The notes: generated by a model from the sequence alone, not told the origin. Counted from the stretch's first letter, positions 1-23,401 are shown. The stretch is DNA of 64,000 nucleotides from Candidatus Babeliales bacterium (GCA_023133515.1 JAGLWI010000003.1:12265-76264); one strand, 5' to 3'. Numbers and translations are program-made.

Positions 1-867
1 GCAGGAATTTTTTTGGGAATAGCTTCTTTAATAAGACCAGTTGGCCATTTTATTATTGTTATCTCAGTAATTATTTTTCTTTTTTCTAATCTGGATTTTT
101 TAAAAAAGTTAATTGGAAGTTCGTTTTTAATATTTGGCTGGTCGTTAATTATATTTTGGTGGATTTTGAGAAACTTTTTGTTTACTGGTGAAATTTTTTT
201 TCATTCAATGAGTGGGGATCATTTTTTAAATTTTTTATCTGTTGATGTTGTTTGTCAACAAACACTTATACCTTTTAATAAGACTAGAAATAAATTATTA
301 GGTGAATCTAGAGAATTAATTTTAAATGAAGAAAAAAAAATAGGAAAAAAATTAAATAAAATTCAAAGATGTAAAATTTCGGAAAAGATAGCTTTTAAAT
401 ATTTAAAAAAATTTCCTTTTGGTACTATTAAAAGATGTTTAATTAATATTTTAAAAACTCTTTTTTGTTTTTATTCTAGGCCATTATTGTATAAACGATT
501 ACCTCATTTAGTTACTTATAATTATTTTAATTCATTTTCTTCTAGTTGGTATAAAGTTAAAAGTTTTTTAGTTTCTATTTTTTCTGACAAATTTATGGTG
601 TTTTTAGTTTATTATGAGTTGTTGTGGATGATGATTATATTTTTAGGTTTTTTTGGGGGAATTATTCTTTCTTTTTTGAAAATATATTTGTTATGTGAAT
701 TATTAAAAATTTTACCATTTATTTTTTTACTTTTGTTTTTAACCATAGGTGTTGGATTTGCAAGATTACGTTTTCCAATAGAACCTTTTTTAATAATTTT
801 TTCTTCTTATTTTTGGATTTATATATTTAAAAAAAGAGTTAGTAACTTTATATGTTCTATAAAATAA
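1..867 (+). CDS. GT-C-fold (ArnT/PMT_2-like) integral membrane glycosyltransferase paralog, 5'-truncated by window edge
   Basis: Frame 1 is open from base 1 ([16 protein letters not shown]...). It aligns with the C-terminal half of the downstream paralogs, including [20 protein letters not shown] and GFARLRFPIEPF. Confidence 0.8.
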   Translation, partial: AGIFLGIASLIRPVGHFIIVISVIIFLFSNLDFLKKLIGSSFLIFGWSLIIFWWILRNFLFTGEIFFHSMSGDHFLNFLSVDVVCQQTLIPFNKTRNKLLGESRELILNEEKKIGKKLNKIQRCKISEKIAFKYLKKFPFGTIKRCLINILKTLFCFYSRPLLYKRLPHLVTYNYFNSFSSSWYKVKSFLVSIFSDKFMVFLVYYELLWMMIIFLGFFGGIILSFLKIYLLCELLKILPFIFLLLFLTIGVGFARLRFPIEPFLIIFSSYFWIYIFKKRVSNFICSIK

Positions 868-2270
868 AGAATAATATTTATTTTTGTATTTTTTTATTTT
901 TGATTTCTATGTTAATTAGAGGATTATTTTTTTTAGAATTTTTAGTTAAAGACGAAAATTTTTTTGTTTGTACTGATTCAGCAGAATATCAAGGAATAGC
1001 CTTAAATATTTTTCATGGAAATGGGATTAAAAATCATAATGATGTTTTAAATTTTCGTCGACTTCCTGGATATCCTATTTTTTTATCGTTGTGTTATAAG
1101 ATTTTTGATATAAAAATTAAAAAAGCATTATGGTTACAGATAATTTTATCTTTGTTTATTCCTATTTTAGTTTTTTGTCTTTCTTTAACATTTTTTCCGT
1201 TAAATATTTTTTTAGCAAAAATAGTATCTGTTTGGGCTACATTTCATATAGGTTTTTTATTACATTCTGGAATGATTCAATCAGATTCTATCTTCGTTAT
1301 ATTTTTTTTATTATTTTTAATTTTATTTTTTTCAAGTTTTAATTTATTTTTTTGTAAAGAAGGATTTTTATTTTTATCTAAAAGAAGAATTTTTTGTGCT
1401 GGAATTTTTCTTGGGATATCATCTTTGATACGTCCTGTTGGACATTATTGCATGATAATATCTTTATTGTTATTTCTCTTTTCTAATTTTGACTTTTTTC
1501 AAAAATTAAAAGGTACAATTATATTGTTTTCAGGTTGGTTTGTAATTGTATTTTGGTGGATTTTGAGAAATTTTTTATTGACTGGATTTTTATTTTTTCA
1601 CACTCTACCAGGAATTCATTTTTTGATTTATTCTGCGGCATATATTGATATGGAGGTTAATAAATGCAGTTATAGTGATTCAAAAAGAAAATTAATAAAA
1701 AAATGGAATTGTGAAATTTTAAAAAAACAAGATAAGTATGGAAGGAAATTAACAGATATTGAAAGTTGTTATTTGGCTGAAAATATTTCTTTTGATTATA
1801 TAAAAAAAAACATATCAATTTTTTTGAAACATAGTTTTTTGCATATGTTTAAAACTTGTGTTTGGCCATATTCTTTAACATTGCTTTTTTGGGATTCTGG
1901 AAGGGATTCTAGTTATTATAAAATAATGTCTTTTTTTGATAGAGTTAAAAGATTTTTATTTCCTACCACTTCTAGTTGGAAAGTATTATTTATTATTTAT
2001 TTTGAACTTTTGTTTTTATTACTTTTAAATTTTGGGTTTATAGGTTTTGTTATTGTTTCTTTTTTTAATAAAGAATTTTTTTGTGTTTTATCAAAAGTTT
2101 TTCCATTTATGTTTTTATTTATTTTTGTTACTTTGGCATATGGAATTGCTAGATTAAGGCTTTCGATAGAGCCATTCCAGGCAATTTTAGCTTTTAAATT
2201 TTGGGTTTTAATATTAAAAAGATTTTTTAAAAGTGAGATTAGTAATGAAAAATACATCAAACTTAAATAA
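852..2270 (+). CDS. GT-C-fold (ArnT/PMT_2-like, GT39/GT83-type) membrane glycosyltransferase, array paralog 1
   Basis: 472 aa and multi-TM. The first loop has D-S-x-x-Y ([11 protein letters not shown]), followed by [40 protein letters not shown] and [11 protein letters not shown]. It overlaps the upstream paralog by 16 nt. Confidence 0.75.
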
Positions 2271-3849
2271 AAAAATTGCAATTATAATTGGTGCTGGTCC
2301 TGCAGGTTTAACTGCGGCATATGAACTTTTAGAGAAAACTGATATTAAACCAATTATTTATGAGCAAGATAGTCAAGTTGGTGGTTTAAGTAGAACCGTT
2401 AATTATAAAGGGAATAGAATAGATATTGGAGGACATAGATTTTTTTCAAAATCAGATAAGATAATTTCTTGGTGGAAAAAAATTTTACCTTTACAAACAG
2501 CCCAATCAAAAGATGATATTATTTTGTCACGAAATATTAAATATGATGGAAAATATCAAAATATAAGTGATCCTGAAAAAGTTGATAATGTAATGCTTAT
2601 AAGAAATAGATTGTCGCGTATATTCTTTTTAAGAAATTTTTTTGATTATCCAATTTCTTTAAGCTTTAACACTTTAAAAAAATTAGGATTTATAAGAATT
2701 CTAAAAATAGGTTTTAGTTATTTTAAAATTATATTTTTCCCTTTTAAAAATGAAAAATCTTTAGAAGATTTTTTTATAAATAGATTTGGAAAAGAACTTT
2801 ATAATACTTTTTTTAAAGATTATACAAAAAAAGTTTGGGGTGTTGAGTGTAGTAAGATTGATGCTTCTTGGGGAGCTCAAAGAATCAAAGGTTTATCTAT
2901 AAGTAAAGCAATTTGTCATTTTTTAAAATCTATTTTTAGTAAAAATAAATCCATTTCTCAAAAAAATATAGAGACAACTCTTATTGGACGTTTTATGTAC
3001 CCTAAATTTGGTCCAGGGCATATGTGGGAACAGGTTGCAAAGTTGATTGAACAAAGAGGAGGAAAAGTTTATTTGGATCACAAAATTGTGGGATTAAAAA
3101 CTGATAAAGATCAAATAACAAATATTTTTGTGGAAAACAAAATTTCTAAAAAGATTTTTAATCGAAATGCAGATTTTTTTTTCTCATCAATGCCTGTAAA
3201 AGATTTAATTGAAGGATGGCAATCTGGTGTTGATAAAGATGTAATGCAGGTTGCACAAGGTCTTGTATACAGGGATTTTATTACTGTAGGGTTACTTTTA
3301 AAAGATCTCCTGGTAAAAAATCAGACAAAAACTAAGACGGTTAATAATATTATTCCAGACAATTGGATTTATATTCAGGAGAGAGATGTTAAAATTGGAA
3401 GATTACAAATATTTAATAATTGGAGCCCTTACATGGTCAAAAACCTAAATAATATTTGGATAGGGCTTGAATATTTTTGTACTCAAGGTGATGAACTTTG
3501 GGAAAAATCAGATAAAGAATTTAAAAGTTTTGCTATAGATGAACTTTGCAAAATAAATTTTATAAAAAAAGAAGATGTACTTGATAGTGTCATTATTCGT
3601 ATGCCTAAAACTTATCCAGCATATTTTGGGACTTATGATAGATTTAATGTTATTAAAAATTTTCTTTTTAAATATGAAAATTTATTCTTGATTGGTAGAA
3701 ACGGAATGCATAGATATAACAATATGGATCATTCAATGCTAACAGCAATGGAGGCTGTAGAAAATATTGTAAATAATATTAAAACAAAAAATAACATTTG
3801 GTCTATTAATGCTCAAGAAGAATATCATGAGGAAAAGGCGAGAAGATAA
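2245..3849 (+). CDS. FAD-dependent oxidoreductase (Rossmann GxGxxG; amine-oxidase/UDP-galactopyranose-mutase-like fold)
   Basis: N-terminus is [21 protein letters not shown]...VGGLSRT. The C-terminus is [25 protein letters not shown]. It is a paralog of 10827..12293. The ATG at 2245 is preferred over the GTG at 2233. Confidence 0.75.
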
Positions 3850-3851
3850 AA

Positions 3852-5258
3852 ATGCATGATATTTTTTTAGTTGTAAGGAAAGAAAAGAGATTTTTATTAT
3901 TTCTTTTAATTGTATCATTTTTAATAAGAGCAATATTTTTTGGATTATTTTTAAGTCACGATAAAAATTACTTTACCCTTGACTCAAATACTTATCATAG
4001 GGTTGCCATTAAAATATTTGAAGGAAAAGGGATAATTGATGTGGATGATAAACCACATTTTTATAGAGTTCCAGGGTATTCTATTTTTTTTGCTACAATA
4101 TATAAATTATTTGAAATAAATGAAGTATTAGCTTTATGGATACAGATTTTTTTTACTTCTTTTCTTCCTTTTTTAATATTTTTTTTATCTATTATTTTAT
4201 TTTCTACTAAAATATTGGTTGCAAAGGCTTCATCTATATTTAGCTCTTTTCATATTGGATATGTATTGTTTTCTGGATTGATGATGACAGAAGGTTTTTT
4301 TTCTTTGTTTTTTATTATTTTTCTTATATTTTTTTTATATGATTTTAATTTTTTCTTTTCAAAAAGTATTCAATCAAAGAGTATTTCTTATAAAAATATG
4401 TTTTTAGGAGGTTTGTTTTTAGGTATTGCTTCTATGTTTAGGCCAGTTGGTCATTGTCTTATTATTTTATCTATAATCTTGTTATTATTTGAAAAAAAAC
4501 ATTTTATGGTGAAAATAAAAAAATCATTTGTTTTATTTGTTTCATGGAGTTTAATTGTTTTTTGGTGGATTTTAAGAAATTATTTTTTAACTGGTTATAT
4601 TTTTTTTCATACCTTGCCAGGAATTCATTTTTTAAAACATATTTCTATTCCAATTGATATGCAGATTAACAAACATAATTTTCATGAGAGCCATGCTAAA
4701 ATTTGGAATGAATGGAATGATTTAATTAAAAAAAAAGAAAAAATAGAAAAACGTAATTTAATTGATATTGAAAAATGTATTATTGGTGAAAGATTGGCTT
4801 TTAGTTATATGTTAAAATATCCTATTTTAACCATTAAAAGAGCTTTTTGTAATTTTTTTAAAACTAATTTTTTTATTTATTCTTATAAGATTTTAGAGAT
4901 TAATGGCTATAAAAAACATTGGGAGATAGATGATAAGAAATCATTTTTTAATAATATCCTAGATAGATATCTTAATATACCTATTAAAAATAATTTATTA
5001 AGAATAATTATTTGGTTAGAAATATTTTTCATTAATTTTATTTTTATTGGTTTTATCTTTTTTATTATAAAGTCTTTTTTTGATATTAATTTATTATATG
5101 TGACTTTAAAAATTTTACCGTTTATAGGATTTATGATATTTATTACTTTTGCTTGTGGTTTTGCAAGATTAAGATTACCAATAGAGCCTTTTTTATTTAT
5201 ATCGTCATTTTATTTTTGGATTAATTTATTTAAAAGATCTAAAAAAGTTGAGCAATGA
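3852..5258 (+). CDS. GT-C-fold membrane glycosyltransferase, array paralog 2
   Basis: 468 aa. Motifs are [60 protein letters not shown] and FARLRLPIEPF. Confidence 0.75.
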   Translation: MHDIFLVVRKEKRFLLFLLIVSFLIRAIFFGLFLSHDKNYFTLDSNTYHRVAIKIFEGKGIIDVDDKPHFYRVPGYSIFFATIYKLFEINEVLALWIQIFFTSFLPFLIFFLSIILFSTKILVAKASSIFSSFHIGYVLFSGLMMTEGFFSLFFIIFLIFFLYDFNFFFSKSIQSKSISYKNMFLGGLFLGIASMFRPVGHCLIILSIILLLFEKKHFMVKIKKSFVLFVSWSLIVFWWILRNYFLTGYIFFHTLPGIHFLKHISIPIDMQINKHNFHESHAKIWNEWNDLIKKKEKIEKRNLIDIEKCIIGERLAFSYMLKYPILTIKRAFCNFFKTNFFIYSYKILEINGYKKHWEIDDKKSFFNNILDRYLNIPIKNNLLRIIIWLEIFFINFIFIGFIFFIIKSFFDINLLYVTLKILPFIGFMIFITFACGFARLRLPIEPFLFISSFYFWINLFKRSKKVEQ

Positions 5259-6655
5259 CTAATAATAAAACTCTTTTATTGTTTATAAAGAAAGATAAGA
5301 AATTTTTATTGTTTCTTTTTATCGTATCATTTTTAGTAAGAGTGATATTTTTTGGATTATTTTTAAGCCACGATAAAAATTATTTTAGATCTGATTCTTT
5401 AAGATATAGTGAAACTGCAAATCAGATATTTAATGGAAATGGTATAAAACGTGTTGATGGATCTTATAATTTTTGGCGTGTTCCTGGATATTCTATTTTT
5501 TTAGCTTTTTGTTATAAGTTATTTGACGGTGACCATATAAAATCTCTTTTGGTGCAAATTTTTTTATCTTCATTTATTCCATTACTTATATTTTTATTGT
5601 CACTTGTATTATTTAAGTTTGATATTCTTCTTGCAAAAATCTCGTCAATTTTCAGCGCTTTTTTATTAGGGTATATTTTATATTCTGGATTGATGATGAC
5701 GGAAAGCTTGTTTTGTATATTTTTTTACATTTTCATCATATTATTTTTACTAAATTTTAATTTTTTCTTTTGTAAAACTTCATTTACTAGAAATTCTTTT
5801 ATTAATATTTTTTTGGCGGGAATATTTTTAGGAATATCTTCTTTATTGCGACCAATGGGGCATTATTTTATGCCTTTGTTTATATTAATGTTGCTTTTAA
5901 ACAAAAATTATTTCATTCAAAATTTGAAAAGATCGGGTTTATTCTTTTTTGGATGGTTAATAATAGTTTTTTGGTGGCTTTTAAGAAATTATCTTTTGAC
6001 TGGATTTATTTTTTTTCACACTTTGCCAGGACATCATCTTTTGTATTATGCAGCAGTTCCTATTGATGTGGCCATCAAAAAAATTTCTCCAATACAAAGT
6101 TCTGATAGAATACTAATAAATGAAAGGAAAGAACTTTATAGGTGTAAAGAAGAAAAAATAGGACGCAAATTAATTGATATAGAAAAATGTTGTATTGATG
6201 AAAAATTAGCTTTTAATTATATAAAACGGGGCCCTTTTTTATTTTTTAAAAATAGTATTTATAATATGATTAAAACATGTTTATCACTTCATTCATCTAC
6301 GATTTTGGCAATATTGGGGCATTCTCCGCCCTCTTACTATAAAATTGGAAGAACATTTTGGGATTTGATTAAAAGATTTTTATTTCCTCCTGTAAAAAAC
6401 ATTTTTATAAGAGGAATAATTTTTTCAGAAATATTTTTATTATTTTTTATTTTATTAGGATTTCTTTTTTGTTTAATTAAATCTTTTTTTGATATAAATC
6501 TTTTTTGTATTATTTTTAAATTTTTACCAGTGATTCTTTTTATGATTATTCTTACTTTTGCCACTGGATTTGCAAGATTAAGATTACCGATAGAGCCTTT
6601 TTTAATAATTCCAGCATTTTATTTTTGGTTAAGTTTTTTTAAAAGGATTTCATGA
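5255..6655 (+). CDS. GT-C-fold membrane glycosyltransferase, array paralog 3
   Basis: 466 aa with an ATGA start/stop overlap with paralog 2. Motifs are RSDSLRYSETA, WRVPGYSIFL, SGLMMTES, SLLRPMGH, FWWLLRNYLLTG and FARLRLPIEPF. Confidence 0.75.
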   Translation: MTNNKTLLLFIKKDKKFLLFLFIVSFLVRVIFFGLFLSHDKNYFRSDSLRYSETANQIFNGNGIKRVDGSYNFWRVPGYSIFLAFCYKLFDGDHIKSLLVQIFLSSFIPLLIFLLSLVLFKFDILLAKISSIFSAFLLGYILYSGLMMTESLFCIFFYIFIILFLLNFNFFFCKTSFTRNSFINIFLAGIFLGISSLLRPMGHYFMPLFILMLLLNKNYFIQNLKRSGLFFFGWLIIVFWWLLRNYLLTGFIFFHTLPGHHLLYYAAVPIDVAIKKISPIQSSDRILINERKELYRCKEEKIGRKLIDIEKCCIDEKLAFNYIKRGPFLFFKNSIYNMIKTCLSLHSSTILAILGHSPPSYYKIGRTFWDLIKRFLFPPVKNIFIRGIIFSEIFLLFFILLGFLFCLIKSFFDINLFCIIFKFLPVILFMIILTFATGFARLRLPIEPFLIIPAFYFWLSFFKRIS

Positions 6656-8079
6656 ATATAAATCTTATTGCAATTTTGAAAAAAGAAAAAAGATTTTTAT
6701 TATTTTTATTTTTGTTTTCTTTTTTCATAAGGGCAATTATTTTTGGATTTATCTTAAGTAAGGATAGAAAATATTTTACATTTGACTCGTCATTTCATAA
6801 TGAAGTTGGAATGGAATTTTCTAAAGGACGTGGTTTGGTTCGTGTGGATGGTGCTTATGCTTTTTGGAAAGTTCCAGGTTATGCAATTTTTTTAGGATTG
6901 GTTTATAGTTTATTTGGTCAAGATGAATTAAAGGCAATTTTTTTTCAAATTTTTTTATCATCTTTTTTACCTATTTTAATATTTTTTTTGTCTTTAGTTT
7001 TGTTTTCTAATGCTATTATTCTTGCAAAAATTACATCGATTTATGGGGTTTTTCATTTAGGTTATGTTTTATTTTCTGGATTGATGATGACAGAAAGTAT
7101 TTTTTGTTTGTTTTTTTTATTATTTTTAATATTTTTTTTGTCACAGTTTAATTTTTTCTTTTGTAAAGAAGCAATAAAAGATTTTTCTTTAAGAAAAAGT
7201 TTTTGTGGAGGTGTTTTTTTAGGTGCTGCATCTTTGATTCGTCCTGTTGGTCATTATTTAATTCTGTTATTAATATTGATGATGTTTTTTGACAATGTTC
7301 CTTTTATTATAAAATTAAAAAAATTGGGATTGTTGGTTTTTGGGTGGGGATTAATAATTTTTTGGTTACTTTTAAGAAACTATTTTTTAACTGGTTATAT
7401 TTTTTTTAATACAATGCCAGGAAATCATTTTTTATATTATGTTGCAGTTCCTATAGATATGTATATGAATAATAATTCAGCTAAAGAAAGTTCTGAAAAA
7501 TTACTTGAAAAAGAATTGAAAGAATTGATTAAAAAAGAAAAAAAAGATAAGTGTAGAAAATTACAAGAAATAGAAGAATCTATTATTGCTCAAAAACTTG
7601 CATATAATTATATTTTAAAAAAGCCTTTTTTATTTGTTAAGAATGCCATTTATAATATGATTAAGACTTGTATATCTTTTCATTCTTCCCATATTCTTGC
7701 TATTTGTGGACATTATCCTGAATGGTGCTATGAAAAAGGTGTAACATTTAACAAGAGGATTAAAAAATATTTGTTTCCACCTATAAAAAATAATTTTTTA
7801 AAATTTATTATTTTCCTAGAAATTATTTTTTCCTTTTTTATTTTAGTAGGATTTGCTGGTGGGATAATTAAGTCATTTTTTAAGTTTGAATTTTTATGTT
7901 CAGTTTTAAAATTTTTGCCTATTATGTGTTTCATGATATTTCTTACATTTGCTAGTGGTATTTCAAGATTAAGATTGCCAATAGAACCTTTTTTTATAAT
8001 AATTGCATTTAATTTTTGGTTGAATATTTTAAAAAGGAGAAAAGGATTATTTAGTGTGGACAAATGCAATGCAAAATAA
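6652..8079 (+). CDS. GT-C-fold membrane glycosyltransferase, array paralog 4
   Basis: 475 aa with an ATGA overlap. Motifs are [46 protein letters not shown] and ISRLRLPIEPF. Confidence 0.75.
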   Translation: MNINLIAILKKEKRFLLFLFLFSFFIRAIIFGFILSKDRKYFTFDSSFHNEVGMEFSKGRGLVRVDGAYAFWKVPGYAIFLGLVYSLFGQDELKAIFFQIFLSSFLPILIFFLSLVLFSNAIILAKITSIYGVFHLGYVLFSGLMMTESIFCLFFLLFLIFFLSQFNFFFCKEAIKDFSLRKSFCGGVFLGAASLIRPVGHYLILLLILMMFFDNVPFIIKLKKLGLLVFGWGLIIFWLLLRNYFLTGYIFFNTMPGNHFLYYVAVPIDMYMNNNSAKESSEKLLEKELKELIKKEKKDKCRKLQEIEESIIAQKLAYNYILKKPFLFVKNAIYNMIKTCISFHSSHILAICGHYPEWCYEKGVTFNKRIKKYLFPPIKNNFLKFIIFLEIIFSFFILVGFAGGIIKSFFKFEFLCSVLKFLPIMCFMIFLTFASGISRLRLPIEPFFIIIAFNFWLNILKRRKGLFSVDKCNAK

Positions 8080-9442
8080 AAAATTTCTTATTTTTTTATT
8101 TTCATTTTCATTATGTATACATTTTTTATTTGTTTATTTTTTTTTTAAAAAAGAATCTGATCATTTTGTTCCACGTGATTCTGCTCAATATCATGATGTT
8201 GCATTTCAGATAGCAAATGGAATGGGAATATCAAATATGGATGGAAGTCCAAGTTTTTATCGTGTACCAGGTTATTCTTTATTTTTAGCGTTTTGTTATA
8301 AAATTTTTGATTTTGATTTAAAAAAGACTATTTGGCTTCAAGTTTTTTTATCGTCTTTAATTCCGATTTTTGTCTTTCTTTTGTCATTAGCTTTTTTTCC
8401 AAATCAGTTACTTTTGGCAAAAATAGCTTCTATTTTTATGGTTTTTAATTTAGGTATGTTGGTACATTGTGCACTTTTAATGTCTGAAGTTTTTTTTATG
8501 ATTTTTTCAATAATTTTTTCAATTTTATTTTTTTCAAGTTTCAATTTATTTATTTGTAAATCTAAAGATTATTTTTTTTCTTATAAAAAGATTTTTTTTT
8601 CAGGAATTTTTTTAGGAGTGTCTTCTTTAATAAGGCCTGTAGGACATTTTATTTTGATAATTACAATTTTTCTTTTAATTTTTTCAGATTTTATATTTTT
8701 GAAAAAATTAAAAAGTTTAGGAGTACTTTTTTTGGGTTGGGTTTTGATTGTATTTTGGTGGTTATTTAGAAATTATTTACTTACTGGAATGATATTTTTT
8801 CATGGTATGACCGGTTATCATTTTTTAAATTATTTTGCATCAGAGATTGATTGTATGGCTAAAAAAACTATTTATTCAAAATCAAAAGATAAATTACTGG
8901 AAGAATGGCAAAATTTAATTTTGGAAAAAGAAAAAGAAAAAGGAAATAAAATTGGACAAATTGAACGATGTTCATTGGCTGGAGATCTTGCATTAAAAAT
9001 AATAAAAGAGAATATTTTTTTGAGCATAAAGCATTCTGGCCTTAATATTTTTAAGACTATTTTTGGATTACATTCTGTTTTCTTTATATCAAGATTTTCT
9101 TTATCTTTTCCAAATTATACGAGTAAGACAACAATGTTTGATAAAATCAAAAATTTTATTTTCCCAAAAATTTCAAACAAATTTATAATATTTTTAATAT
9201 ATTTGGAGATTATATTATTAGTATTTATTTTATTAGGATTTTTTTGTTATGGGATTGTTTCTATTTTTTGTTTTGAAAAATTATGTTCTTTTTTAAAGGT
9301 TTTGCCTTTAATTACATTATTATTATTTTTGACTTTTGGTTCAGGAATCGCAAGATTAAGGATTCCGGTTGAACCATTTTTGATAATTTTTTCATTTAAT
9401 TTTTGGATTAATTTTTTTTCAAAATATAAAAAAATTTTATAA
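8069..9442 (+). CDS. GT-C-fold membrane glycosyltransferase, array paralog 5
   Basis: Motifs are [41 protein letters not shown] and IARLRIPVEPF. The ATG at 8069 (MQNKKFLIFLF) matches the other paralog N-termini better than the GTG at 8054. Confidence 0.72.
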   Translation: MQNKKFLIFLFSFSLCIHFLFVYFFFKKESDHFVPRDSAQYHDVAFQIANGMGISNMDGSPSFYRVPGYSLFLAFCYKIFDFDLKKTIWLQVFLSSLIPIFVFLLSLAFFPNQLLLAKIASIFMVFNLGMLVHCALLMSEVFFMIFSIIFSILFFSSFNLFICKSKDYFFSYKKIFFSGIFLGVSSLIRPVGHFILIITIFLLIFSDFIFLKKLKSLGVLFLGWVLIVFWWLFRNYLLTGMIFFHGMTGYHFLNYFASEIDCMAKKTIYSKSKDKLLEEWQNLILEKEKEKGNKIGQIERCSLAGDLALKIIKENIFLSIKHSGLNIFKTIFGLHSVFFISRFSLSFPNYTSKTTMFDKIKNFIFPKISNKFIIFLIYLEIILLVFILLGFFCYGIVSIFCFEKLCSFLKVLPLITLLLFLTFGSGIARLRIPVEPFLIIFSFNFWINFFSKYKKIL

Positions 9443-10842
9443 TGACACTTTCTTTGAACAATAAGAAAAAATTTTTAATTTTTTTATTTTGTTTGTCTTT
9501 TTTGATAAGAGCAATAATTTTTGGTTTCTTTTTAAGTAAAAATAAAAATTATTGGAATCGTGATTCAAAAGCTTATAATAATGTTGCTATTCAAATATCT
9601 AAAGGAAAAGGAATTGTTAATTTGGATAGTTCTTATCATTTTCATAGAGTTCCTGCGTATTCTATGTTTTTAGCTTTATGTTACAAATGTTTTGGATATG
9701 ATATAAAAAAAGCATTATGGATTCAGATTTTTTTTGCTTCTTTTATTCCGATATTAATTTTTTATTTGTCTCTTTTTTTATTTAATAACAATATATTTTT
9801 AGCAAAGATTTGTTCGATTTTTACATCATTTCACATAGGATATGTTTTATTCTCTGGCCTTGTAATGACTGAGGTTTTTTTTATTTTGTTTTTTTCTATT
9901 TTTTTAATTTTGTTCTTGAGAAATTTTAATTTTTTTTTCTGTCAAAAGAAATATATTAAAAATTCTTATAAATTTTTTTTAATAAGCGGAATCTTTTTAG
10001 GGCTAGCTTCGCTTATGCGTCCTGTGGGACATTATATTGTTTTTATATCATTAGGTTTTTTACTTTTATCAGATTTTAATTTTATAAAAAAAATAAAAAG
10101 CATCATTTTGCTTTTTATTGGATGGTTAATGATAGTTTTTTGGTGGCTTTTAAGAAATTATCTTTTAACTGGTTTTATTTTTTTTCATACGTTATCTGGA
10201 ATTCATTTTTTAAAGCATTCCGCAGGAAGATTAGTAATGAAATCTCATGATTGTTCTTATATGCAGGCTTTAGATCGGTTAAATAATGAAATAAATATAT
10301 TCCAAGGAAAAAAAGAAAAAGATATTGGAAGAAAATTGAATGAGATAGAATATTGTCAATTAGCAGAAAAAGTTTCTTTTAAATATTTAAAAAAAGATTA
10401 TGTTTTAACAACAAAACATTTTTTGACCAATATTTTTAAAACATGTTTTTCTTTGTATTCTGCAATGCTTTTACATATAAACTCTGGAGGTAAATTACCT
10501 GATTATAATAAAAACAGAGGCTGGAAAAAAGTTTTAAAACGTTTTTTGTTTCCAGATACTTTGAGCCGTTGGTTAAAATTTGTAATATATCTCGAGATAT
10601 TTTTTCATTTATTTATTTGGATTGGTTTTTTAGGTTTTTCAACGTATTCTTTTTTTTGTAAAGATTATTTATGTGTGTTTTTAAAAACATTTCCATTTAT
10701 TTTTTTATTTATTTTTATTTCTTTAGCATGTGGTTTTGCAAGATTAAGGTTGCCTATTGAGTGCTTTTTGATAATCTTATCATTTAAGTTTTGGTTGGAT
10801 TTATTTTGGAGAAGAAAGAGTGGTTTATGGATAAAAGTTTAA
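9442..10842 (+). CDS. GT-C-fold membrane glycosyltransferase, array paralog 6
   Basis: 466 aa. Its start overlaps the upstream stop by 1 nt (TAATG). Motifs are NRDSKAYNNVA, HRVPAYSMFL, SGLVMTEV, SLMRPVGH, FWWLLRNYLLTG and FARLRLPIECF. Confidence 0.75.
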   Translation: MTLSLNNKKKFLIFLFCLSFLIRAIIFGFFLSKNKNYWNRDSKAYNNVAIQISKGKGIVNLDSSYHFHRVPAYSMFLALCYKCFGYDIKKALWIQIFFASFIPILIFYLSLFLFNNNIFLAKICSIFTSFHIGYVLFSGLVMTEVFFILFFSIFLILFLRNFNFFFCQKKYIKNSYKFFLISGIFLGLASLMRPVGHYIVFISLGFLLLSDFNFIKKIKSIILLFIGWLMIVFWWLLRNYLLTGFIFFHTLSGIHFLKHSAGRLVMKSHDCSYMQALDRLNNEINIFQGKKEKDIGRKLNEIEYCQLAEKVSFKYLKKDYVLTTKHFLTNIFKTCFSLYSAMLLHINSGGKLPDYNKNRGWKKVLKRFLFPDTLSRWLKFVIYLEIFFHLFIWIGFLGFSTYSFFCKDYLCVFLKTFPFIFLFIFISLACGFARLRLPIECFLIILSFKFWLDLFWRRKSGLWIKV

Positions 10843-12293
10843 AGAAGGAAGCTGTGGTTATAGGAGCTGGACCGGCTGGTCTTACTGCAGCATTAGAACT
10901 TGTAAAATCTGATAAATTTGAAGTTAAAATTTTAGAAAAAGATTTTGTTGTAGGTGGAATTTCTAAAACTACGGAATATAACGGTTGTAAATTTGATATA
11001 GGACCACATCATTTTATAACTGATTCAAAAAAAGTAGAAGATTGGTGGTTTGACTTGATGAAACCTGAGCAGGAAAATGGAAATCTTTTTATAAATTTAT
11101 GTAGATTTACAAGAATTTATTATAAAAAACATTTTTTTAATTATCCTTTACAACCTTTAAACGTTCTTAAAGGTCTTAGTTTTTTTGAATGTCTGTATTG
11201 TGTTTTTAGTTATATAAAAATTTGTTTATTTCCTATTAAAAAGGTAAAAACTTTTCAGGATTGGGTTACTAATAAGTTTGGATACAGGCTTTTTTTTATT
11301 TTTTTTAAAACTTATACAGAAAAAGTTTGGGGAATATCTTGTAATAAGATATCTGCTGATTGGGCTGCTCAAAGAATAAAAGGATTTTCTCTTTCAAAAG
11401 CTATATTTTATGCTTTTTTTGGAAGATTTTTTAAAAAAAATACTCTAAGAACTTTGAGTGATAAATTTTATTATCCATTGTTTGGAGCAGGAACATTGTG
11501 GAACAGGGTGGCTTTTAATATAGAGTCTAGTAAATTAGGAAAAATATTTTTAAATAAAAATGTTGTTGGAATTACACATAATGATTTTAAAATTACATCT
11601 GTTTTTTCTTGTAATGCTAAAGATTCAATAAGTGGTGCTAAAAAATTAATAGAACATAGAGCAGATTATTTTTTTTCTACAATGCCTATTAAAGATTTAA
11701 TTTTGTCAATGGATCCGTTACCTAAAGAAAATATTATTAAAGCAGCAAAAAAATTACGATATAGAGGCTTAATTACTGTTAATTTTATTATAAATAAAAA
11801 AAATATTTGTTTTGATCATTGGCTTTATATTCATGATAAAAGTGTAAAGATGGGACGTATTGGAAACATGAATAATTTTTCTTTAAAAATGGTTGATAAT
11901 CCAAATCATACAGCTCTTAGTTTAGAGTATTTTACTTTTGTTGATTCGTCATTTTGGAAAAAAACAGATGATGCGTTAATAAGATTGGGAAAAAGAGAAA
12001 TTGAAAAAATTGGAATAGTAAAAAAGAAAGATGTTATTAGTGGAATGATTTTAAGGTTGCAAAAAGCATATCCTATTTATGATAAAAATTATAAAAAGGA
12101 TTTGAAAATTATTTTTGATTATTTAAATAAGTTTTCAAATTTACAACTAATGGGACGAAATGGATTGCATAAGTATAACAATATGGATATTGCCATGCTT
12201 TCTGCGTTTAAAGCTGTAGATATTGTTTTGCAATCTGAAAAAGATGAAAAATTAAATAAAGAAACAGAAAAGATTGTGCAGATGAGAGTTTGA
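10827..12293 (+). CDS. FAD-dependent oxidoreductase, paralog of 2245..3849
   Basis: Motifs are [39 protein letters not shown]...SADWAAQRIKG and GRNGLHKYNNMDIAMLSAFKAV. It is colinear with the first copy. The ATG at 10827 is preferred over the TTG at 10791. Confidence 0.75.
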   Translation: MDKSLKKEAVVIGAGPAGLTAALELVKSDKFEVKILEKDFVVGGISKTTEYNGCKFDIGPHHFITDSKKVEDWWFDLMKPEQENGNLFINLCRFTRIYYKKHFFNYPLQPLNVLKGLSFFECLYCVFSYIKICLFPIKKVKTFQDWVTNKFGYRLFFIFFKTYTEKVWGISCNKISADWAAQRIKGFSLSKAIFYAFFGRFFKKNTLRTLSDKFYYPLFGAGTLWNRVAFNIESSKLGKIFLNKNVVGITHNDFKITSVFSCNAKDSISGAKKLIEHRADYFFSTMPIKDLILSMDPLPKENIIKAAKKLRYRGLITVNFIINKKNICFDHWLYIHDKSVKMGRIGNMNNFSLKMVDNPNHTALSLEYFTFVDSSFWKKTDDALIRLGKREIEKIGIVKKKDVISGMILRLQKAYPIYDKNYKKDLKIIFDYLNKFSNLQLMGRNGLHKYNNMDIAMLSAFKAVDIVLQSEKDEKLNKETEKIVQMRV

Positions 12294-12300
12294 TATTGAT

Positions 12301-13725
12301 ATGAAAGATAATTTTATTTTATTGGTTTTTTCACTACTTTTTATATTTTTTTCTTTTGTTTTATATTTTAGTATTTCATCTATTCCTCCTTATCAAGATA
12401 TAGATTCTAAGGCATATATTTATAATGCAAAAAGAATTTATGATAACAATCTTTTTTCATCAGTAGCTAGCAAAAAAGATGATCCTTATTATGCTTTAGG
12501 ATATGCATTTTTTATTGGCTTGATATACAAATTATTTGGAATAAATAATAATTTTGTTGTTTTTATACAAATTTTATTAGCTTTATTAACAGGTTTTTTA
12601 GTTTTTAGGGCAACCAAATTTTTATTTAATAAAACAATTGCATTAATATCGTTTATATTTTTTTCTTTTAATATTGGTTTTTTGGTTTTTTCTCAATTTA
12701 TTTTGACAGAAATATTATTGACTTTTTTATTAGCATTGTTTTTTGAGCGATTTGCGTATTTTTTAAAAAAAGATAGTATTTCAAGTTTGATTCAATCTGG
12801 GTTGATATTGGGGATTTCTGTAGCAGTAAAACCTGCTGCAATATATTTTATTTTTCCTTTGTTTTTTTTGATTTTATTTATGAACCGAAGCTTTTCGGGC
12901 TTTGTAAACAAAGCCATTTTGTTGAAGTCGGAGGAGAAGTTGTCTAGCGAAGATTTATTTTTAATAAAAAATAAATTGTTTTATAAAATTAAATTAATTT
13001 TTTTTCTTTCTGTTTCTTTTTATCTTCCTATTATTGGTTATATGTTTTTTAATAAAATTAACTTTGATAATTTTAGTGTTGCTCCTTTGGCAAATGAGAA
13101 TCTTTATCTTTATCTTTTCCCAAAAGTTATTGCTTATAAAAATAATACAGATTGGATTATAGAGAAAAGAAAAATTGGTTCACTTTTAACCGGTAGTAAG
13201 TTGAATGAAAAAAGTTGGTCAAAAATAAAAGAAAAATTTTATGAATATTTTAAAAAAGACCCAATTATTTTTTTACAGATTTGGTTAAAGAATGTTTTTA
13301 AGACGTGTGTTGGTCTTTTTACAACAAATCTTAAAGTTTTGATAGAAAGAGATGTAAAAGGTGGAGATATTTCTTTTTTCAAAATGGAAGGAAATTTTTT
13401 TAAAAGAATTTTTGATTATATTACATGTGGTACAAAAAATCCTCTAATAAAAATAGTAGGTGTTTTTGAGGCTATCTGGTCAGTATTACGTTATATTTTA
13501 TGTTTGATTGCTTTATTTTTTTTAGTTTTTAAGAAAAAGTGGTTAACTTTTTTCTTTTTCTTTTTTTATTTATTTTATTTTTCAATGATTACAGGTCACG
13601 ATGGTTGTGCAAGATTTAGAATGATGTTTGAGCCTGTGTTGCTAGTTTTGGCATCATTTGGTTTGTGGGTTATAGTAAGAGCTTATATGAAAACTCAGAT
13701 AATTTTACAACGGCGTTCATCCTGA
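12301..13725 (+). CDS. Divergent GT-C-fold (PMT_2-like) membrane glycosyltransferase
   Basis: 474 aa and multi-TM. It has DIDSKAYIYNAKRI in the first loop and a C-terminal CARFRMMFEPV that echoes ARLRLPIEPF. The last codons and the TGA stop lie inside palindromic repeat copy 1. Confidence 0.65.
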   Translation: MKDNFILLVFSLLFIFFSFVLYFSISSIPPYQDIDSKAYIYNAKRIYDNNLFSSVASKKDDPYYALGYAFFIGLIYKLFGINNNFVVFIQILLALLTGFLVFRATKFLFNKTIALISFIFFSFNIGFLVFSQFILTEILLTFLLALFFERFAYFLKKDSISSLIQSGLILGISVAVKPAAIYFIFPLFFLILFMNRSFSGFVNKAILLKSEEKLSSEDLFLIKNKLFYKIKLIFFLSVSFYLPIIGYMFFNKINFDNFSVAPLANENLYLYLFPKVIAYKNNTDWIIEKRKIGSLLTGSKLNEKSWSKIKEKFYEYFKKDPIIFLQIWLKNVFKTCVGLFTTNLKVLIERDVKGGDISFFKMEGNFFKRIFDYITCGTKNPLIKIVGVFEAIWSVLRYILCLIALFFLVFKKKWLTFFFFFFYLFYFSMITGHDGCARFRMMFEPVLLVLASFGLWVIVRAYMKTQIILQRRSS

Positions 13726-14928: not shown

Positions 14929-14956
14929 AGTTTAAAAAATTGATTTTAGGAATTTT

Positions 14957-16048
14957 ATGAAAAAAGCTTTGATTACGGGAATAACTGGTCAGGATGGGTC
15001 CTATTTGGCAGAGTTTTTATTAAAAAAAGGATATCAAGTTCATGGTATAAAACGTCGTTCTTCTAGTTTTAATACTTCTCGAATTGATCATATTTATCAG
15101 GATCGATATAGAATAAATAATAGAAACTTTGTTTTACATTATGGTGATTTAACTGATGCTACAAATTTAATAAGAATTATTCAGGATACTCAGCCAGATG
15201 AAATTTATAATTTAGCTGCGCAAAGTCATGTTCATGTTTCTTTTGAAACTCCAGAATACACAGCAAATTCAGATGCACTTGGAACATTAAGATTGCTTGA
15301 GGCTATCAGGATTTTAAAGCTAACCAAAAAAACCAAATTTTATCAGGCATCAACGAGTGAACTTTATGGAAAAGTTCAGCAGATTCCTCAAAATGAAAGT
15401 ACTCAATTTTATCCACGTTCACCTTATGCGGCAGCAAAACTTTATGCTTATTGGATAACCATTAATTATCGTGAGGCATATAATATTTTTGCTTGTAACG
15501 GTATTTTATTTAATCATGAGTCTGAAAGGCGTGGAGAGACTTTTGTGACAAGAAAAATTACAATAGCAGTTTCGAAAATAAAATATGGATTACAAGAAAA
15601 ACTTTTTTTAGGAAATTTGGATTCAAAAAGAGATTGGGGTTATGCAAAAGAATATGTTGAAGCAATGTGGCTTATGTTGCAACATGAAAAACCTCAGGAT
15701 TATGTTATTGCAACTGGTCAAACTCATACTGTAAGAGAGTTTGTTGAATTGGCATTTAGATTTGTTGGAAAAGAAATAATTTGGCACGGTACAGGTGTTA
15801 ATGAAAAAGGAATTGATAAAAAAACTGAAAAAGTTTTAGTTGAGATTGATCCAATTTATTTTAGACCAACAGAAGTTAATTTGTTGATTGGTGACGCAAG
15901 AAAAGTTAAAAATGATCTTGGTTGGGCTGCAAAAACATCATTTAATGATCTAGTAAAATTGATGGTTGATTATGATTTGAAACAGATTGAAAAAGATTTG
16001 AATTTAAAAATTGTAAAAAAGGTGAAGGGTGAATTTTACAGGATTTAA
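14957..16048 (+). CDS. gmd: GDP-mannose 4,6-dehydratase
   Basis: Motifs are [56 protein letters not shown] and [17 protein letters not shown]. Confidence 0.92.
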
Positions 16049-23343: not shown

Positions 23344-23401
23344 GTAATTAAGATAGTACAACTTAGGTTGATAAAAATAAATGCGAAATCAAAATGTTAA
23401 G

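What the first reader, a model, noticed from the sequence alone, without database searches (positions are those of the whole stretch)
2245..12293. Two paralogous Rossmann-type FAD oxidoreductases embedded in and bracketing the GT-C array
2245-3849 and 10827-12293 are colinear paralogs. Both have [10 protein letters not shown](Y/L)EL, VGG(L/I)S(R/K)T, YT(K/E)[10 protein letters not shown] and GRNG(M/L)H(R/K)YNNMD. They flank exactly five GT-C paralogs and overlap their neighbours. The fold class (amine oxidase / UDP-galactopyranose mutase-like) suggests redox or ring-contraction chemistry on a sugar or lipid-linked sugar donor used by the adjacent GT-C enzymes. That would be conceptually analogous to DprE1/DprE2 feeding GT-C arabinosyltransferases, but with a different FAD fold. 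I know of no characterised function for this pairing.
Basis: inference. Interest (0 to 1): 0.6.

Follow-up and report, generated by a model that had tools for sequence, protein, structure and literature searches.

The report
UGM-like flavoenzymes wired to GT-C glycosyltransferases
Two related flavin enzymes sitting inside a row of ten membrane sugar-transferase genes belong to a large, uncharacterised family. The family most resembles the enzyme that turns six-ring sugars into five-ring sugars, and across many bacteria and some archaea it is encoded next to, or fused with, the machinery that decorates cell-surface glycans outside the membrane.

Summary
Window 2245-3849 (FAD1) and 10827-12293 (FAD2) are colinear paralogues: 38% identity, E 2e-113, and all quoted motifs are present. 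Exactly five GT-C paralogues lie between them. The array is larger, though: nine close copies plus one divergent PMT_2-type copy, and it runs 3.4 kb upstream of the window.

Both proteins score above the cut-offs of NCBIfam PRK07208, whose models are named only 'hypothetical protein'. They are not HemY, CrtI or DprE1. Beyond the Rossmann motif their only solved relatives are eukaryote-type UDP-galactopyranose mutases. The residues that align with the mutase's histidine loop and with the Arg/Tyr residues I recall as phosphate-binding are invariant in 108 family members.

Co-occurrence is strong. In 38 of 67 loci from many phyla the gene is adjacent to, or fused with, a polytopic membrane protein (controls 21 of 285). 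GtrA lies next to it in 11 loci. At least 530 flavoenzyme-membrane-domain fusions exist, plus one flavoenzyme-GtrA fusion. GtrA-flavoenzyme-GT-C cassettes lack a GtrB-type GT2.

Best reading: a non-redox, mutase-type enzyme that supplies an isomerised (probably furanose) donor to the lipid-linked GT-C pathway. The substrate is unknown. Other first-reader notes of this scan describe the same cassette on other genomes. I found no paper that characterises the family.

The parts
1..867 (+). 3' part of GT-C paralogue 3 of the array (the gene starts upstream of the window, at G000:C7:11698)
   Evidence: 38-44% identical to the other copies. tblastn and ORF map of contig C7.
852..2270 (+). GT-C paralogue 4 (472 aa, polytopic). 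Its end overlaps the start of FAD1 by 26 nt.
2245..3849 (+). FAD1: UGM-like flavoenzyme, NCBIfam PRK07208.1-2 (NF005546)
   Evidence: 838 bits against a cut-off of 418. Pfam Amino_oxidase and NAD_binding_8. The best PDB relatives are eukaryote-type UDP-galactopyranose mutases, by sequence profile and by fold. The residues aligning with the UGM residues checked are conserved.
3852..10842 (+). Five tandem GT-C paralogues (3852-5258, 5255-6655, 6652-8079, 8054-9442, 9442-10842), chained by small overlaps
   Evidence: 40-55% pairwise identity. An Asp after TM1 is invariant. The model of 5255-6655 matches only GT-C structures.
10827..12293 (+). FAD2: UGM-like flavoenzyme, NCBIfam PRK07208.1-4 (NF005548). 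It overlaps the preceding GT-C gene by 16 nt.
   Evidence: 506 bits against a cut-off of 389. 38% identical to FAD1. Every named protein among its best 120 relatives is labelled Dependentiae, Babeliales or TM6, apart from two or three generic or aberrant labels. Same conserved residues, plus Gln at the position of AfUGM Q107.
12301..13725 (+). Divergent GT-C (PMT_2-type). This type is conserved near FAD2-type genes in related genomes.
   Evidence: Pfam PMT_2 3e-13 and PMT 1e-6. 25-28% identical to the array copies. Synteny in relatives.
13861..16048 (+). Mannose-1-P guanylyltransferase-like gene and GDP-mannose 4,6-dehydratase: a nucleotide-sugar supply next to the FAD2/GT-C pair
   Evidence: Pfam. 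In relatives, genes of ~350 and ~360 aa follow the H-type GT-C in the same way. They are equated with these two by size and position only.
16029..17993 (+). 654-aa polytopic membrane protein with no family match. A gene of the same size lies directly beside FAD2-type genes in relatives.
   Evidence: No Pfam or NCBIfam hit. 11 hydrophobic segments. A ~632-660-aa neighbour in about 9 of 16 related loci, equated with this gene by size and position only.
23381..24406 (+). GtrB/ArnC/PgfS-like GT2 with two C-terminal TM helices: candidate polyprenyl-phosphate sugar synthase
   Evidence: Pfam Glycos_transf_2. The best NCBIfam similarities are PgfS (2.6e-63) and ArnC (3e-45), both below their cut-offs. 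TM segments at 233-262 and 266-294.

Best explanation
FAD1 and FAD2 are cytoplasmic members of a large, uncharacterised prokaryotic family (NCBIfam PRK07208). The family is a distant sister of UDP-galactopyranose mutase. I propose that they work as UGM does. The reduced flavin N5 attacks the anomeric carbon of a sugar-1-phosphate ester and displaces the phosphate-bearing leaving group. The ring then re-closes in another form, most likely pyranose to furanose, and the phosphate re-attacks.

The product feeds the lipid-linked branch of surface-glycan synthesis. A polyprenyl-phosphate sugar is made on the cytoplasmic face, flipped (GtrA-type domain), and used outside the membrane by the neighbouring GT-C transferases. 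The two paralogues belong to different subfamilies, so they probably make two different donors for different subsets of the ten GT-C enzymes.

Shown: paralogy, family membership, the UGM-like fold and conserved residues, the GT-C fold of the neighbours, and recurrent synteny and fusion with GtrA and GT-C.

Inferred: the mutase chemistry, the furanose product, the identity of the sugar, and whether the substrate is a nucleotide sugar (which then needs a GtrB-like GT2 to load it on the lipid) or the polyprenyl-phosphate sugar itself.
For: (1) Family. NF005546 scores 838 bits against a cut-off of 418. NF005548 scores 506 against 389.

(2) Relationship to UGM.
- A profile of the family against all PDB sequences finds eukaryote-type UGMs first (A. 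fumigatus 3ute, T. cruzi 4dsg; E about 2e-18), in three colinear stretches that span most of the protein. The best non-UGM hits shown (gamma-carotene desaturase, putrescine and polyamine oxidases) match only the first ~60-80 residues.
- Foldseek with the AF2 model ranks UGMs first (E 1e-22), ahead of protoporphyrinogen oxidases.

(3) Conserved residues. In the printed alignment, AfUGM H63, Y104, W167, R182, Y317, R327, R447, Y453 and N457 align with FAD1 H68, Y139, W202, R217, Y380, R390, R489, Y495 and N497. In my 108-sequence sample, which includes FAD2 and fused forms, H68, Y139, Y380, R390, R489 and Y495 are invariant. W202 and R217 are kept in all but the distant C10 paralogue (107 of 108), and N497 in 104. 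From my own knowledge of the A. fumigatus UGM structures, these are the flavin-side histidine loop and the Arg/Tyr residues that hold the diphosphate.

(4) Coupling to lipid-linked glycosylation.
- In 80 loci from many phyla the gene is adjacent on the same strand to, or fused with, a protein of at least 6 TM segments and 300 aa in 38 of 67 scorable loci. Control genes in the same loci give 21 of 285 (Fisher p 4e-18).
- Pfam places 8 of these neighbours in PMT_2 (6 also or instead in PMT), 3 in GT87 and 1 in DUF2142.
- GtrA is found in 13 loci, within two genes in 11.
- At least 530 proteins of about 1010-1110 aa fuse the flavoenzyme to a C-terminal extension. That extension is polytopic (6-9 TM) in the three I examined, and some carry DUF2142. 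Protein-language-model features are nearest PMT and PMT_2 clusters.
- A Nostoc protein fuses the flavoenzyme to a GtrA domain.

(5) Within the window's own phylum, 14 of 16 fetched loci have the flavoenzyme next to window-type GT-C genes, in variable copy number.

(6) The locus and its contig supply the other parts.
- A PgfS/ArnC-like GT2 lies in the window.
- A PpgS/AglJ-like GT2-GtrA fusion lies 1.3 kb after the window.
- No canonical Glf and no UbiA-type phosphoribose synthase turned up in the 84.5%-complete assembly.
Against: - There is no biochemical datum for any member.
- The proteins fail the curated UGM models: Pfam GLF 17 bits against 26.3, and TIGR00031 35-42 bits against 304.
- Two positions that align with AfUGM Q107 and N163, which I recall as uracil contacts, differ in FAD1 (S142, T198). 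The nucleotide, if there is one, is therefore uncertain.
- The FAD1 model is only moderately confident (pLDDT 67.7), and the helical or flap region is poorly predicted.
- About 40% of loci show no adjacent membrane partner.
- Most partner proteins have no Pfam assignment, and an iterated profile from the window's GT-C copies could not link them.
- A few 'partners' are clearly unrelated proteins, for example OAD_beta and LPG_synthase_TM.
- My ORF calls are crude. 13 of the 80 loci could not be scored.
Confidence: 0.55

Rival explanations
1. DprE1-like redox role. The flavoenzyme oxidises a hydroxyl of the lipid-linked (or nucleotide) sugar to a keto intermediate, and an SDR then reduces it. The net effect is an epimerised donor for the GT-C enzymes.
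For: - The amine-oxidase superfamily is mostly redox enzymes.
- The neighbourhood logic resembles Rv3789-Rv3792: GtrA-like, DprE1, DprE2, AftA (PMC11127046).
- SDR epimerase genes recur near the gene in 5 to 7 of 67 loci.
- The distant third paralogue on contig C10 is directly followed by a GalE-like SDR.
Against: - Similarity beyond the Rossmann motif is to UGM only. The residues aligning with UGM's phosphate-holding Arg/Tyr set and histidine loop are conserved across the sampled family, which a hydroxyl oxidase would not need.
- No SDR is adjacent to FAD1 or FAD2.
- The SDR-linked C10 paralogue is the one copy that has lost R217 and W202.
Confidence: 0.2
2. Flavin-dependent loading enzyme. 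The UGM-type flavin-sugar adduct formed from a nucleotide sugar is resolved by the phosphate of polyprenyl phosphate instead of by the nucleotide. The flavoenzyme would then itself make the lipid-linked (furanose) donor and replace GtrB.
For: - In the 11 loci where GtrA flanks the gene, the order is typically gtrA, flavoenzyme, polytopic or GT-C gene. No GtrB-like GT2 lies within 10 kb by my own HMM, and Pfam's tally over 69 neighbours shows Glycos_transf_2 in at most one.
- The flavoenzyme-GtrA fusion mirrors the GT2-GtrA/DPMS architecture.
- Both nucleotide-side residues (Y139, W202) and phosphate-side residues are conserved.
Against: - There is no precedent for such chemistry.
- A housekeeping GT2 encoded elsewhere could serve the cassettes.
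- The window's own locus does carry two polyprenyl-phosphate GT2 candidates.
- Cassette counts are small, and the GT2 detection was limited.
Confidence: 0.13
3. Lipid-carrier tailoring. The flavoenzyme desaturates or saturates the polyprenyl chain of the carrier used by the GT-C enzymes, by analogy with CrtI/HpnE-type enzymes.
For: Weak N-terminal matches to CrtI, CrtD and HpnE models. Association with membrane proteins and with GtrA.
Against: Those matches cover only about 50-90 N-terminal residues (the Rossmann motif) and score 25-38 bits against cut-offs of 238-640. The conserved UGM-type sugar-phosphate residues are unexplained.
Confidence: 0.05
4. Protoporphyrinogen oxidase or another housekeeping oxidase, as JGI's automatic name suggests, placed here by chance.
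For: JGI names many homologues 'protoporphyrinogen oxidase'. Protoporphyrinogen oxidases are the second group of fold matches.
Against: TIGR00562 scores 29-33 bits against a cut-off of 97.85. The synteny and fusions with GtrA and GT-C are far above control. Two to four copies occur per small genome, inside glycan loci.
Confidence: 0.02

Closest known systems
UDP-galactopyranose mutase (Glf/UGM), especially the eukaryote-type enzymes of Aspergillus fumigatus and Trypanosoma cruzi
   Same: - Best sequence-profile and fold match.
- Similar length, about 500 aa.
- The residues aligning with the GGH histidine loop (GPH in FAD2, as I recall for bacterial UGMs), with the Arg pair R182/R327, and with Y317, R447, Y453 and N457 are conserved.
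- Cytoplasmic, with no signal peptide.
   Different: - Below the cut-offs of Pfam GLF and TIGR00031.
- About 18% identity.
- The positions aligning with Q107 and N163 are changed in FAD1.
- FAD1-type proteins carry an extra ~40-residue insert.
- The gene neighbourhood is GtrA, GT-C and fusions, not cytoplasmic Galf-transferases.
- The substrate is unknown.
DprE1/DprE2 with Rv3789 and the GT-C arabinosyltransferases of mycobacteria
   Same: A donor-tailoring flavoenzyme is encoded beside a small GtrA-like membrane protein and GT-C transferases that use a polyprenyl-phosphate furanose (PMC11127046).
   Different: - DprE1 has the vanillyl-alcohol-oxidase fold and does redox epimerisation together with DprE2. 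Here the fold and conserved residues are UGM-like, and no partner reductase is adjacent.
- The mycobacterial pathway starts from PRPP through a UbiA-type synthase. No such enzyme was found in this genome, which is 84.5% complete.
Three-component extracytoplasmic glycosylation systems (GtrABC; the PPPRS-MATE-GT136 system of Citrobacter youngae, Kelly et al. 2024)
   Same: A lipid-linked monosaccharide donor, a flippase and a GT-C transferase. A GtrA domain and GtrB/ArnC-like GT2s are present in or next to the locus. The C. youngae O2 system has an auxiliary epimerase that diversifies the furanose.
   Different: - A UGM-like flavoenzyme is an additional component. In the GtrA-flanked cassettes of other phyla it stands where gtrB stands.
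- Here the GT-C component is expanded to ten tandem genes with two flavoenzymes.
NCBIfam PRK07208 (five 'equivalog' models named 'hypothetical protein')
   Same: FAD1 and FAD2 score above the cut-offs of sub-models 1-2 and 1-4.
   Different: The family carries no functional name. Automatic names are 'NAD(P)/FAD-dependent oxidoreductase' and 'protoporphyrinogen oxidase'.

Membership tests
NCBIfam PRK07208 (NF005545-NF005549) | Whole-protein score above the curated cut-off | tested here: met
   FAD1 scores 838.1 bits on NF005546 (cut-off 418). FAD2 scores 506.2 bits on NF005548 (cut-off 389).
UDP-galactopyranose mutase (Glf, PF03275 / TIGR00031) | Score above the curated cut-off of the family models | tested here: not met
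   GLF 17.4 bits against 26.3 (FAD2 only). TIGR00031 35.1 and 41.6 bits against 303.75.
UDP-galactopyranose mutase (Glf, PF03275 / TIGR00031) | UGM three-domain fold | tested here: met
   The top Foldseek matches are 4dsg, 4dsh, 5vwt and 3ute (E 1e-22 to 1e-20, TM 0.52-0.61). The model has pLDDT 67.7, so this is of moderate weight.
UDP-galactopyranose mutase (Glf, PF03275 / TIGR00031) | Histidine loop next to the flavin (GGH in AfUGM, H63) | tested here: met
   AfUGM G61-G62-H63 aligns with FAD1 G66-G67-H68. H68 is present in 108 of 108 sampled sequences. FAD2 has G-P-H.
UDP-galactopyranose mutase (Glf, PF03275 / TIGR00031) | Arg pair and Tyr residues that bind the diphosphate (AfUGM R182, R327, Y419, Y453). 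Their roles are taken from my own knowledge of the structures. | tested here: met
   R217 aligns with R182, R390 with R327 and Y495 with Y453. R390 and Y495 are invariant in 108 of 108 sequences, and R217 in 107 of 108. The Y419 equivalent (probably Y461) lies outside the printed alignment, so it is unresolved.
UDP-galactopyranose mutase (Glf, PF03275 / TIGR00031) | Uridine-pocket residues (AfUGM Y104, Q107, N163, W167; roles from my own knowledge) | tested here: inconclusive
   Y139 and W202 are conserved. Q107 corresponds to S142 in FAD1 but to Q in FAD2. N163 corresponds to T198.
UDP-galactopyranose mutase (Glf, PF03275 / TIGR00031) | Interconverts UDP-Galp and UDP-Galf with reduced FAD | not testable with these tools
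   Needs an enzyme assay.
Protoporphyrinogen oxidase HemY / phytoene desaturase CrtI | Score above the curated cut-off over the full length | tested here: not met
   TIGR00562 scores 29-33 bits against 97.85. crtI_fam scores 26-38 bits against 238. Most of these matches cover only the N-terminal ~50-90 residues, and none approaches its cut-off.
DprE1 (decaprenylphosphoryl-ribose oxidase) | VAO/PCMH-type FAD-binding fold | tested here: not met
   Pfam finds only Rossmann-type FAD/NAD families. The fold matches are UGMs and protoporphyrinogen oxidases.
GT-C glycosyltransferases (for the neighbouring paralogues) | GT-C membrane fold | tested here: met
   The model (pLDDT 82.4, pTM 0.86) puts only GT-C enzymes at the top of its PDB matches (E 4.6e-4 to 0.28): STT3, ArnT 5ezm, AglB, PglB, Pmt4, AftA, ALG3. 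The divergent copy hits Pfam PMT_2 at 3e-13.
GT-C glycosyltransferases (for the neighbouring paralogues) | Acidic catalytic residue in the first extracytoplasmic loop | tested here: inconclusive
   An invariant Asp in a 'DSxxY' motif lies shortly after TM1 in all 9 aligned copies. Its position relative to the active site was not checked.
Three-component (GtrABC-type) glycosylation system | GtrA-type flippase, polyprenyl-phosphate GT2 and GT-C encoded together | tested here: met
   The GT-C array. A GT2 with two C-terminal TM helices at 23381-24406. A GT2-GtrA fusion at G000:C7:77533-78561, 1.3 kb beyond the window. No stand-alone gtrA was found in the genome.

The most novel reading that the evidence does not exclude
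The PRK07208 flavoenzymes may be a new class of lipid-linked-donor synthase. They would use UGM-type covalent flavin catalysis either to contract the ring of a polyprenyl-phosphate sugar directly, or to move the sugar from a nucleotide onto polyprenyl phosphate. Either way they would take the place of GtrB in 'GtrA-flavoenzyme-GT-C' systems and create polyprenyl-phosphate hexo- or pentofuranoses, a donor type not described outside the PRPP-derived pentofuranose route.
Probability: 0.3. Interest if true: 0.85.

Novelty: new variant of a known kind. Interest (0 to 1): 0.62.

Why it matters
GT-C enzymes are among the least understood glycosyltransferases, because their lipid-linked donors are rarely known. 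This is a very large family: each search returned about 8,000 hits at the candidate ceiling. It is strongly conserved, spans bacteria and archaea, and carries only the name 'hypothetical protein'. It turns out to be UGM-like and to be genetically and physically (by fusion) tied to GtrA and GT-C proteins.

That gives a concrete, testable hypothesis for where a whole class of orphan GT-C systems gets its donors. It would add a second route to lipid-linked furanoses, independent of PRPP. Furanoses are absent from mammals, so such pathways matter for antigen diversity and as selective targets.

In this Dependentiae genome of about 1 Mb, ten GT-C genes and two such flavoenzymes take up about 17 kb. 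That is a striking investment in surface-glycan variation for an organism whose cultured relatives, as far as I know, live inside protists.

Tried and rejected
Neighbourhoods therefore came from the search for related loci and my own crude ORF calling.
- Complex prediction of FAD1 (residues 13-536) with the downstream GT-C gave no verdict (score 0.00). It is no evidence either way.
- A profile of the nine GT-C copies found no PDB sequence at E up to 1.
- hhalign of the fused C-terminal domains against the window's GT-C profile gave only 7.7% probability, although the 'DSxxY ... GY..FL' motifs line up.
- An iterated HMM from the window's GT-C copies reached only 1 of 39 partner proteins and none of 120 fusion tails. 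The partners are therefore many different polytopic families, not one.
- Pfam gives no family for the fusion tails of Puia, Niastella and Paraflavitalea.
- Eight literature searches found no paper on the family, on lipid-linked galactofuranose, or on a UGM-like enzyme with GtrA or GT-C. The searches covered PRK07208; GtrA with FAD oxidoreductase and GT-C; UGM with GtrA; 'UGM-like'; Und-P-Galf; and pyranose or furanose mutase with polyprenyl. Subscription journals are not covered.
- Rejected readings: HemY, CrtI and HpnE (Rossmann-only matches), and DprE1 membership (different fold).
- The PRPP to polyprenyl-phosphoribose route of Kelly et al. was considered as the donor source. No UbiA-family gene was found in the assembly.

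Full report
**1. What is there**

The window is G000:C7:12265-76264, from a 1.03-Mb assembly that is 84.5% complete with about 27% G+C.
- All named proteins among FAD2's best hits come from Dependentiae, Babeliales or TM6, apart from two or three generic or aberrant labels. The 261 genomes of its phylum are 0.5-1.9 Mb. The organism is therefore almost certainly a member of Dependentiae.
- From at least C7:3800 to window position ~31000, all ORFs of 100 aa or more except two that lie inside longer + strand genes are on the + strand and tightly packed. Together they form a very large surface-glycan locus. It includes UDP-GlcNAc 2-epimerase, two UDP-sugar dehydrogenases, ManC, Gmd, several SDRs, GT4 and GT2 transferases and an ABC exporter.

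**2. The observation**

FAD1 (2245-3849) and FAD2 (10827-12293) are 38% identical over their whole length, E 2e-113. All five quoted motifs are present.
- Between them lie five polytopic paralogues of about 465 aa, 40-55% identical to each other.
tblastn and an ORF map of contig C7 show nine close copies in tandem (C7:8846-23106), four before FAD1 and five after it. A tenth, divergent copy follows FAD2 at window 12301-13725. That copy is 25-28% identical to the others and hits Pfam PMT_2 at 3e-13.
- Each flavoenzyme gene overlaps the end of the GT-C gene before it, by 26 and 16 nt. An AG-rich stretch lies upstream of the FAD2 ATG.
- Pfam and NCBIfam do not recognise the nine close copies, so I tested the 'GT-C' label directly. 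An AlphaFold model of 5255-6655, built on the paralogue alignment, has pLDDT 82 and pTM 0.86. The top of its PDB match list (all matches with E up to 0.28) is GT-C enzymes only: STT3, ArnT, AglB, PglB, Pmt4, AftA and ALG3. An Asp shortly after TM1 is invariant.

**3. What the flavoenzymes are**

Pfam sees only Amino_oxidase and NAD_binding_8, plus a sub-threshold GLF hit.
- NCBIfam places both proteins firmly in PRK07208. This is a set of five 'equivalog' models whose product name is 'hypothetical protein'. FAD1 matches sub-model 1-2 (838 bits against 418) and FAD2 matches sub-model 1-4 (506 against 389). HemY, CrtI and HpnE models touch mostly the N-terminal Rossmann motif and score far below their cut-offs.
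- A family profile searched against all PDB sequences finds eukaryote-type UDP-galactopyranose mutases first (E about 2e-18), in three colinear stretches covering most of the protein. Bacterial UGMs come next. The best non-UGM hits shown match only the first ~60-80 residues.
- The AF2 model of FAD1 (pLDDT 67.7) gives the same ranking by fold: UGMs at E 1e-22, then protoporphyrinogen oxidases.
- Reading the printed alignment, AfUGM H63 (the GGH loop), Y104, W167, R182, Y317, R327, R447, Y453 and N457 correspond to FAD1 H68, Y139, W202, R217, Y380, R390, R489, Y495 and N497. The chain numbering is offset by +3.
- I sampled 108 sequences: 40 FAD1-type, 40 FAD2-type, 25 fusion proteins and the three window-genome copies. 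H68, Y139, Y380, R390, R489 and Y495 are invariant. W202 and R217 are kept in all but the distant C10 paralogue, and N497 in 104 of 108. FAD2-type proteins also keep Gln at the position of AfUGM Q107.
- From my own knowledge of the UGM structures, these residues form the flavin-side histidine loop and the cradle for the diphosphate. A hydroxyl or amine oxidase would have no reason to keep them. This is my main reason for preferring mutase-type, non-redox chemistry on a sugar-1-phosphate ester.
- The proteins are nevertheless not Glf orthologues, because they fail the curated models.

**4. Is the link to GT-C real beyond this locus?**

Yes.

*Adjacency across phyla*
- The search for related loci returned 80 loci with FAD1 homologues (46-67% identity). 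They come from Cloacimonadota, Planctomycetota, Bacteroidota, Acidobacteriota, Bacillota, Cyanobacteria, Lentisphaerota, Pseudomonadota, a Methanobacterium and others.
- With simple ORF calls, the flavoenzyme gene is directly adjacent on the same strand to, or fused with, a protein of at least 6 TM segments and 300 aa in 38 of 67 scorable loci. Soluble genes at least three genes away in the same loci give 21 of 285 (odds ratio 16, p 4e-18).

*Identity of the partners*
- Pfam recognises PMT_2 in 8 of the 39 partner proteins, PMT in 6 (these may overlap), GT87 in 3 and DUF2142 in 1. Most of the rest have no family, and a few are plainly unrelated.
- One unassigned partner, from Clostridium sp. 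LS, is nearest PMT_2 clusters by language-model features. This is a lead only.

*GtrA and other neighbours*
- Small four-TM genes flanking the flavoenzyme, mostly just upstream, are GtrA in 8 of 12 cases by Pfam. My own HMM finds GtrA in 13 loci, within two genes in 11.
- Other recurrent neighbours are GT2 genes of ~320 aa, SDR epimerases, UDP-glucose dehydrogenase, GT4 and acyltransferase_3.

*Fusions*
- Fusions make the same point independently. At least 530 proteins of about 1010-1110 aa, from Chitinophaga, Niastella, Puia, Olivibacter and many metagenomes, carry the flavoenzyme at the N-terminus followed by a C-terminal extension of about 500 aa. That extension is polytopic (6-9 TM) in the three I examined. 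A few carry DUF2142, and the Puia tail is nearest PMT and PMT_2 clusters.
- A Nostoc protein fuses the flavoenzyme to a GtrA domain at residues 543-669.
- One 786-aa protein fuses it to methyltransferase domains.

*Within the window's own phylum*
- NF005548 scores above its cut-off in 59 of 261 genomes.
- In 14 of 16 fetched loci, the flavoenzyme sits next to window-type GT-C genes present in one to six copies. A recurring arrangement is the flavoenzyme, a protein of about 650 aa, a PMT_2-type GT-C and two genes of about 350-360 aa. I equate these with the window's 654-aa protein, ManC and Gmd by size and position only.
- GT-C copy number therefore varies between relatives. The window holds an unusually expanded version.

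**5. How it most likely works**

The flavoenzymes have no signal peptide and no TM segments. In the fusions the flavoenzyme precedes TM1, and if the partner has the usual N-in topology of GT-C enzymes (my own knowledge) that places it on the cytoplasmic face. The active sites of the GT-C enzymes face outward. The flavoenzyme must therefore act before flipping, on the donor side.

The locus supplies the rest of a lipid-linked pathway:
- a PgfS/ArnC-like GT2 with two C-terminal TM helices at 23381-24406;
- a PpgS/AglJ-like GT2-GtrA fusion 1.3 kb past the window;
- no canonical Glf and no UbiA-type phosphoribose synthase.

The furanose routes known from Glf or from PRPP (Kelly et al. 2024, PMC11127046) are therefore not evident here.

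I propose that FAD1 and FAD2 isomerise an activated sugar, probably pyranose to furanose. The product reaches the outside as a polyprenyl-phosphate donor for the adjacent GT-C enzymes. The two subfamilies would serve different donors.

It is open whether the substrate is a nucleotide sugar or the lipid-linked sugar.
- For a nucleotide sugar: Y139 and W202 (and Q in FAD2) of the uridine pocket are kept.
- For a lipid-linked substrate, or even direct loading of polyprenyl phosphate: the enzyme is fused to GtrA and GT-C domains. In addition, the 11 GtrA-flanked cassettes contain no GtrB-like GT2 within 10 kb by my HMM, and at most one of their 69 neighbours could carry Pfam Glycos_transf_2. The flavoenzyme therefore occupies the gtrB position of gtrABC.

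**6. Rivals**
- A DprE1-like oxidation paired with an SDR remains possible (0.2). The conserved UGM residues argue against it, and so does the lack of an adjacent reductase. The one paralogue that does have an adjacent GalE-like SDR (contig C10) is the copy that has lost R217 and W202.
- Carrier-lipid tailoring and HemY are unlikely.

**7. Comparison with what is known, and novelty**
- In mechanism the closest known enzyme is UGM. In system logic the closest are GtrABC, the pentofuranose three-component systems and DprE1/E2-Rv3789-AftA.
- I found no paper on PRK07208, on a UGM-like enzyme with GtrA or GT-C, or on lipid-linked galactofuranose. The commentary on Kelly et al. mentions FAD-dependent oxidoreductases in Bacillus systems without identifying them.
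- Other first-reader notes of this scan describe the same GtrA / FAD-oxidoreductase / GT-C cassette on other genomes. They are unverified notes. They agree with my synteny survey, but I do not count them as evidence.
- I rate the finding a new variant of a known kind: a three-component-type glycosylation system with a UGM-like fourth (or replacing) component, and an uncharacterised sister family of UGM.

**8. Limits**
- There is no biochemistry.
- The FAD1 model is only moderately confident.
- ORF calls in the fetched loci are crude, and 13 loci could not be scored.
- Most partner proteins lack a family assignment.
- The complex prediction gave no verdict.

Noticed in passing
G000:C10:11664-13923 (L090:7665-9924): A third, distant paralogue (460 aa; NF005548 at 159 bits, below the cut-off) is directly followed by, and overlaps, a GalE-like SDR. 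It has lost the R217 and W202 equivalents. Copies of this type, scoring ~165-200 bits, occur in most of the 156 genomes of the phylum that have a hit. It may be a separate flavoenzyme-reductase pair.
   Followed up: partly
window 16029-17993, and its counterparts in L121-L135: A 654-aa polytopic protein has no Pfam or NCBIfam family. A gene of the same size is conserved directly beside FAD2-type genes in about 9 of 16 related genomes. Weak N-terminal paralogues lie at C7:85-90 kb.
   Followed up: partly
window 2245-3849 compared with 10827-12293: The two paralogues have different histories. FAD1-type proteins are 63-71% identical across very distant phyla (Cloacimonadota, Bacillota, Nanoarchaeota, Desulfobacterota), which suggests wide horizontal spread. 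Nearly all named proteins among FAD2's best hits are from Dependentiae or Babeliales.
   Followed up: partly
P0116 (786 aa, metagenome): A FAD1-type flavoenzyme is fused to SAM-methyltransferase domains (PF13489, PF08241, PF08242).
   Followed up: no
G000:C7:77533-78561 (window coordinate 65269-66297, just outside the window): A GT2-GtrA fusion that is PpgS/AglJ-like. It carries the only GtrA domain found in the genome.
   Followed up: partly
window 30990-32237 (- strand): A WD40 beta-propeller gene lies on the opposite strand in the middle of the glycan locus. It is the only real minus-strand gene in the first 40 kb of the window.
   Followed up: no
table (e.g. G107:C18, G086:C2, G163:C2, G173:C11): Several FAD2-type matches in related genomes are reported with one in-frame TAA or TAG inside the match, although the open frame is full length. 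This is probably the match running past the gene's end. I did not check it.
   Followed up: no
L121-L136 (related Dependentiae genomes): The number of window-type GT-C genes beside the flavoenzymes varies from 0 to 6 between relatives. The window's genome has 10. This indicates rapid expansion and contraction of the array.
   Followed up: partly
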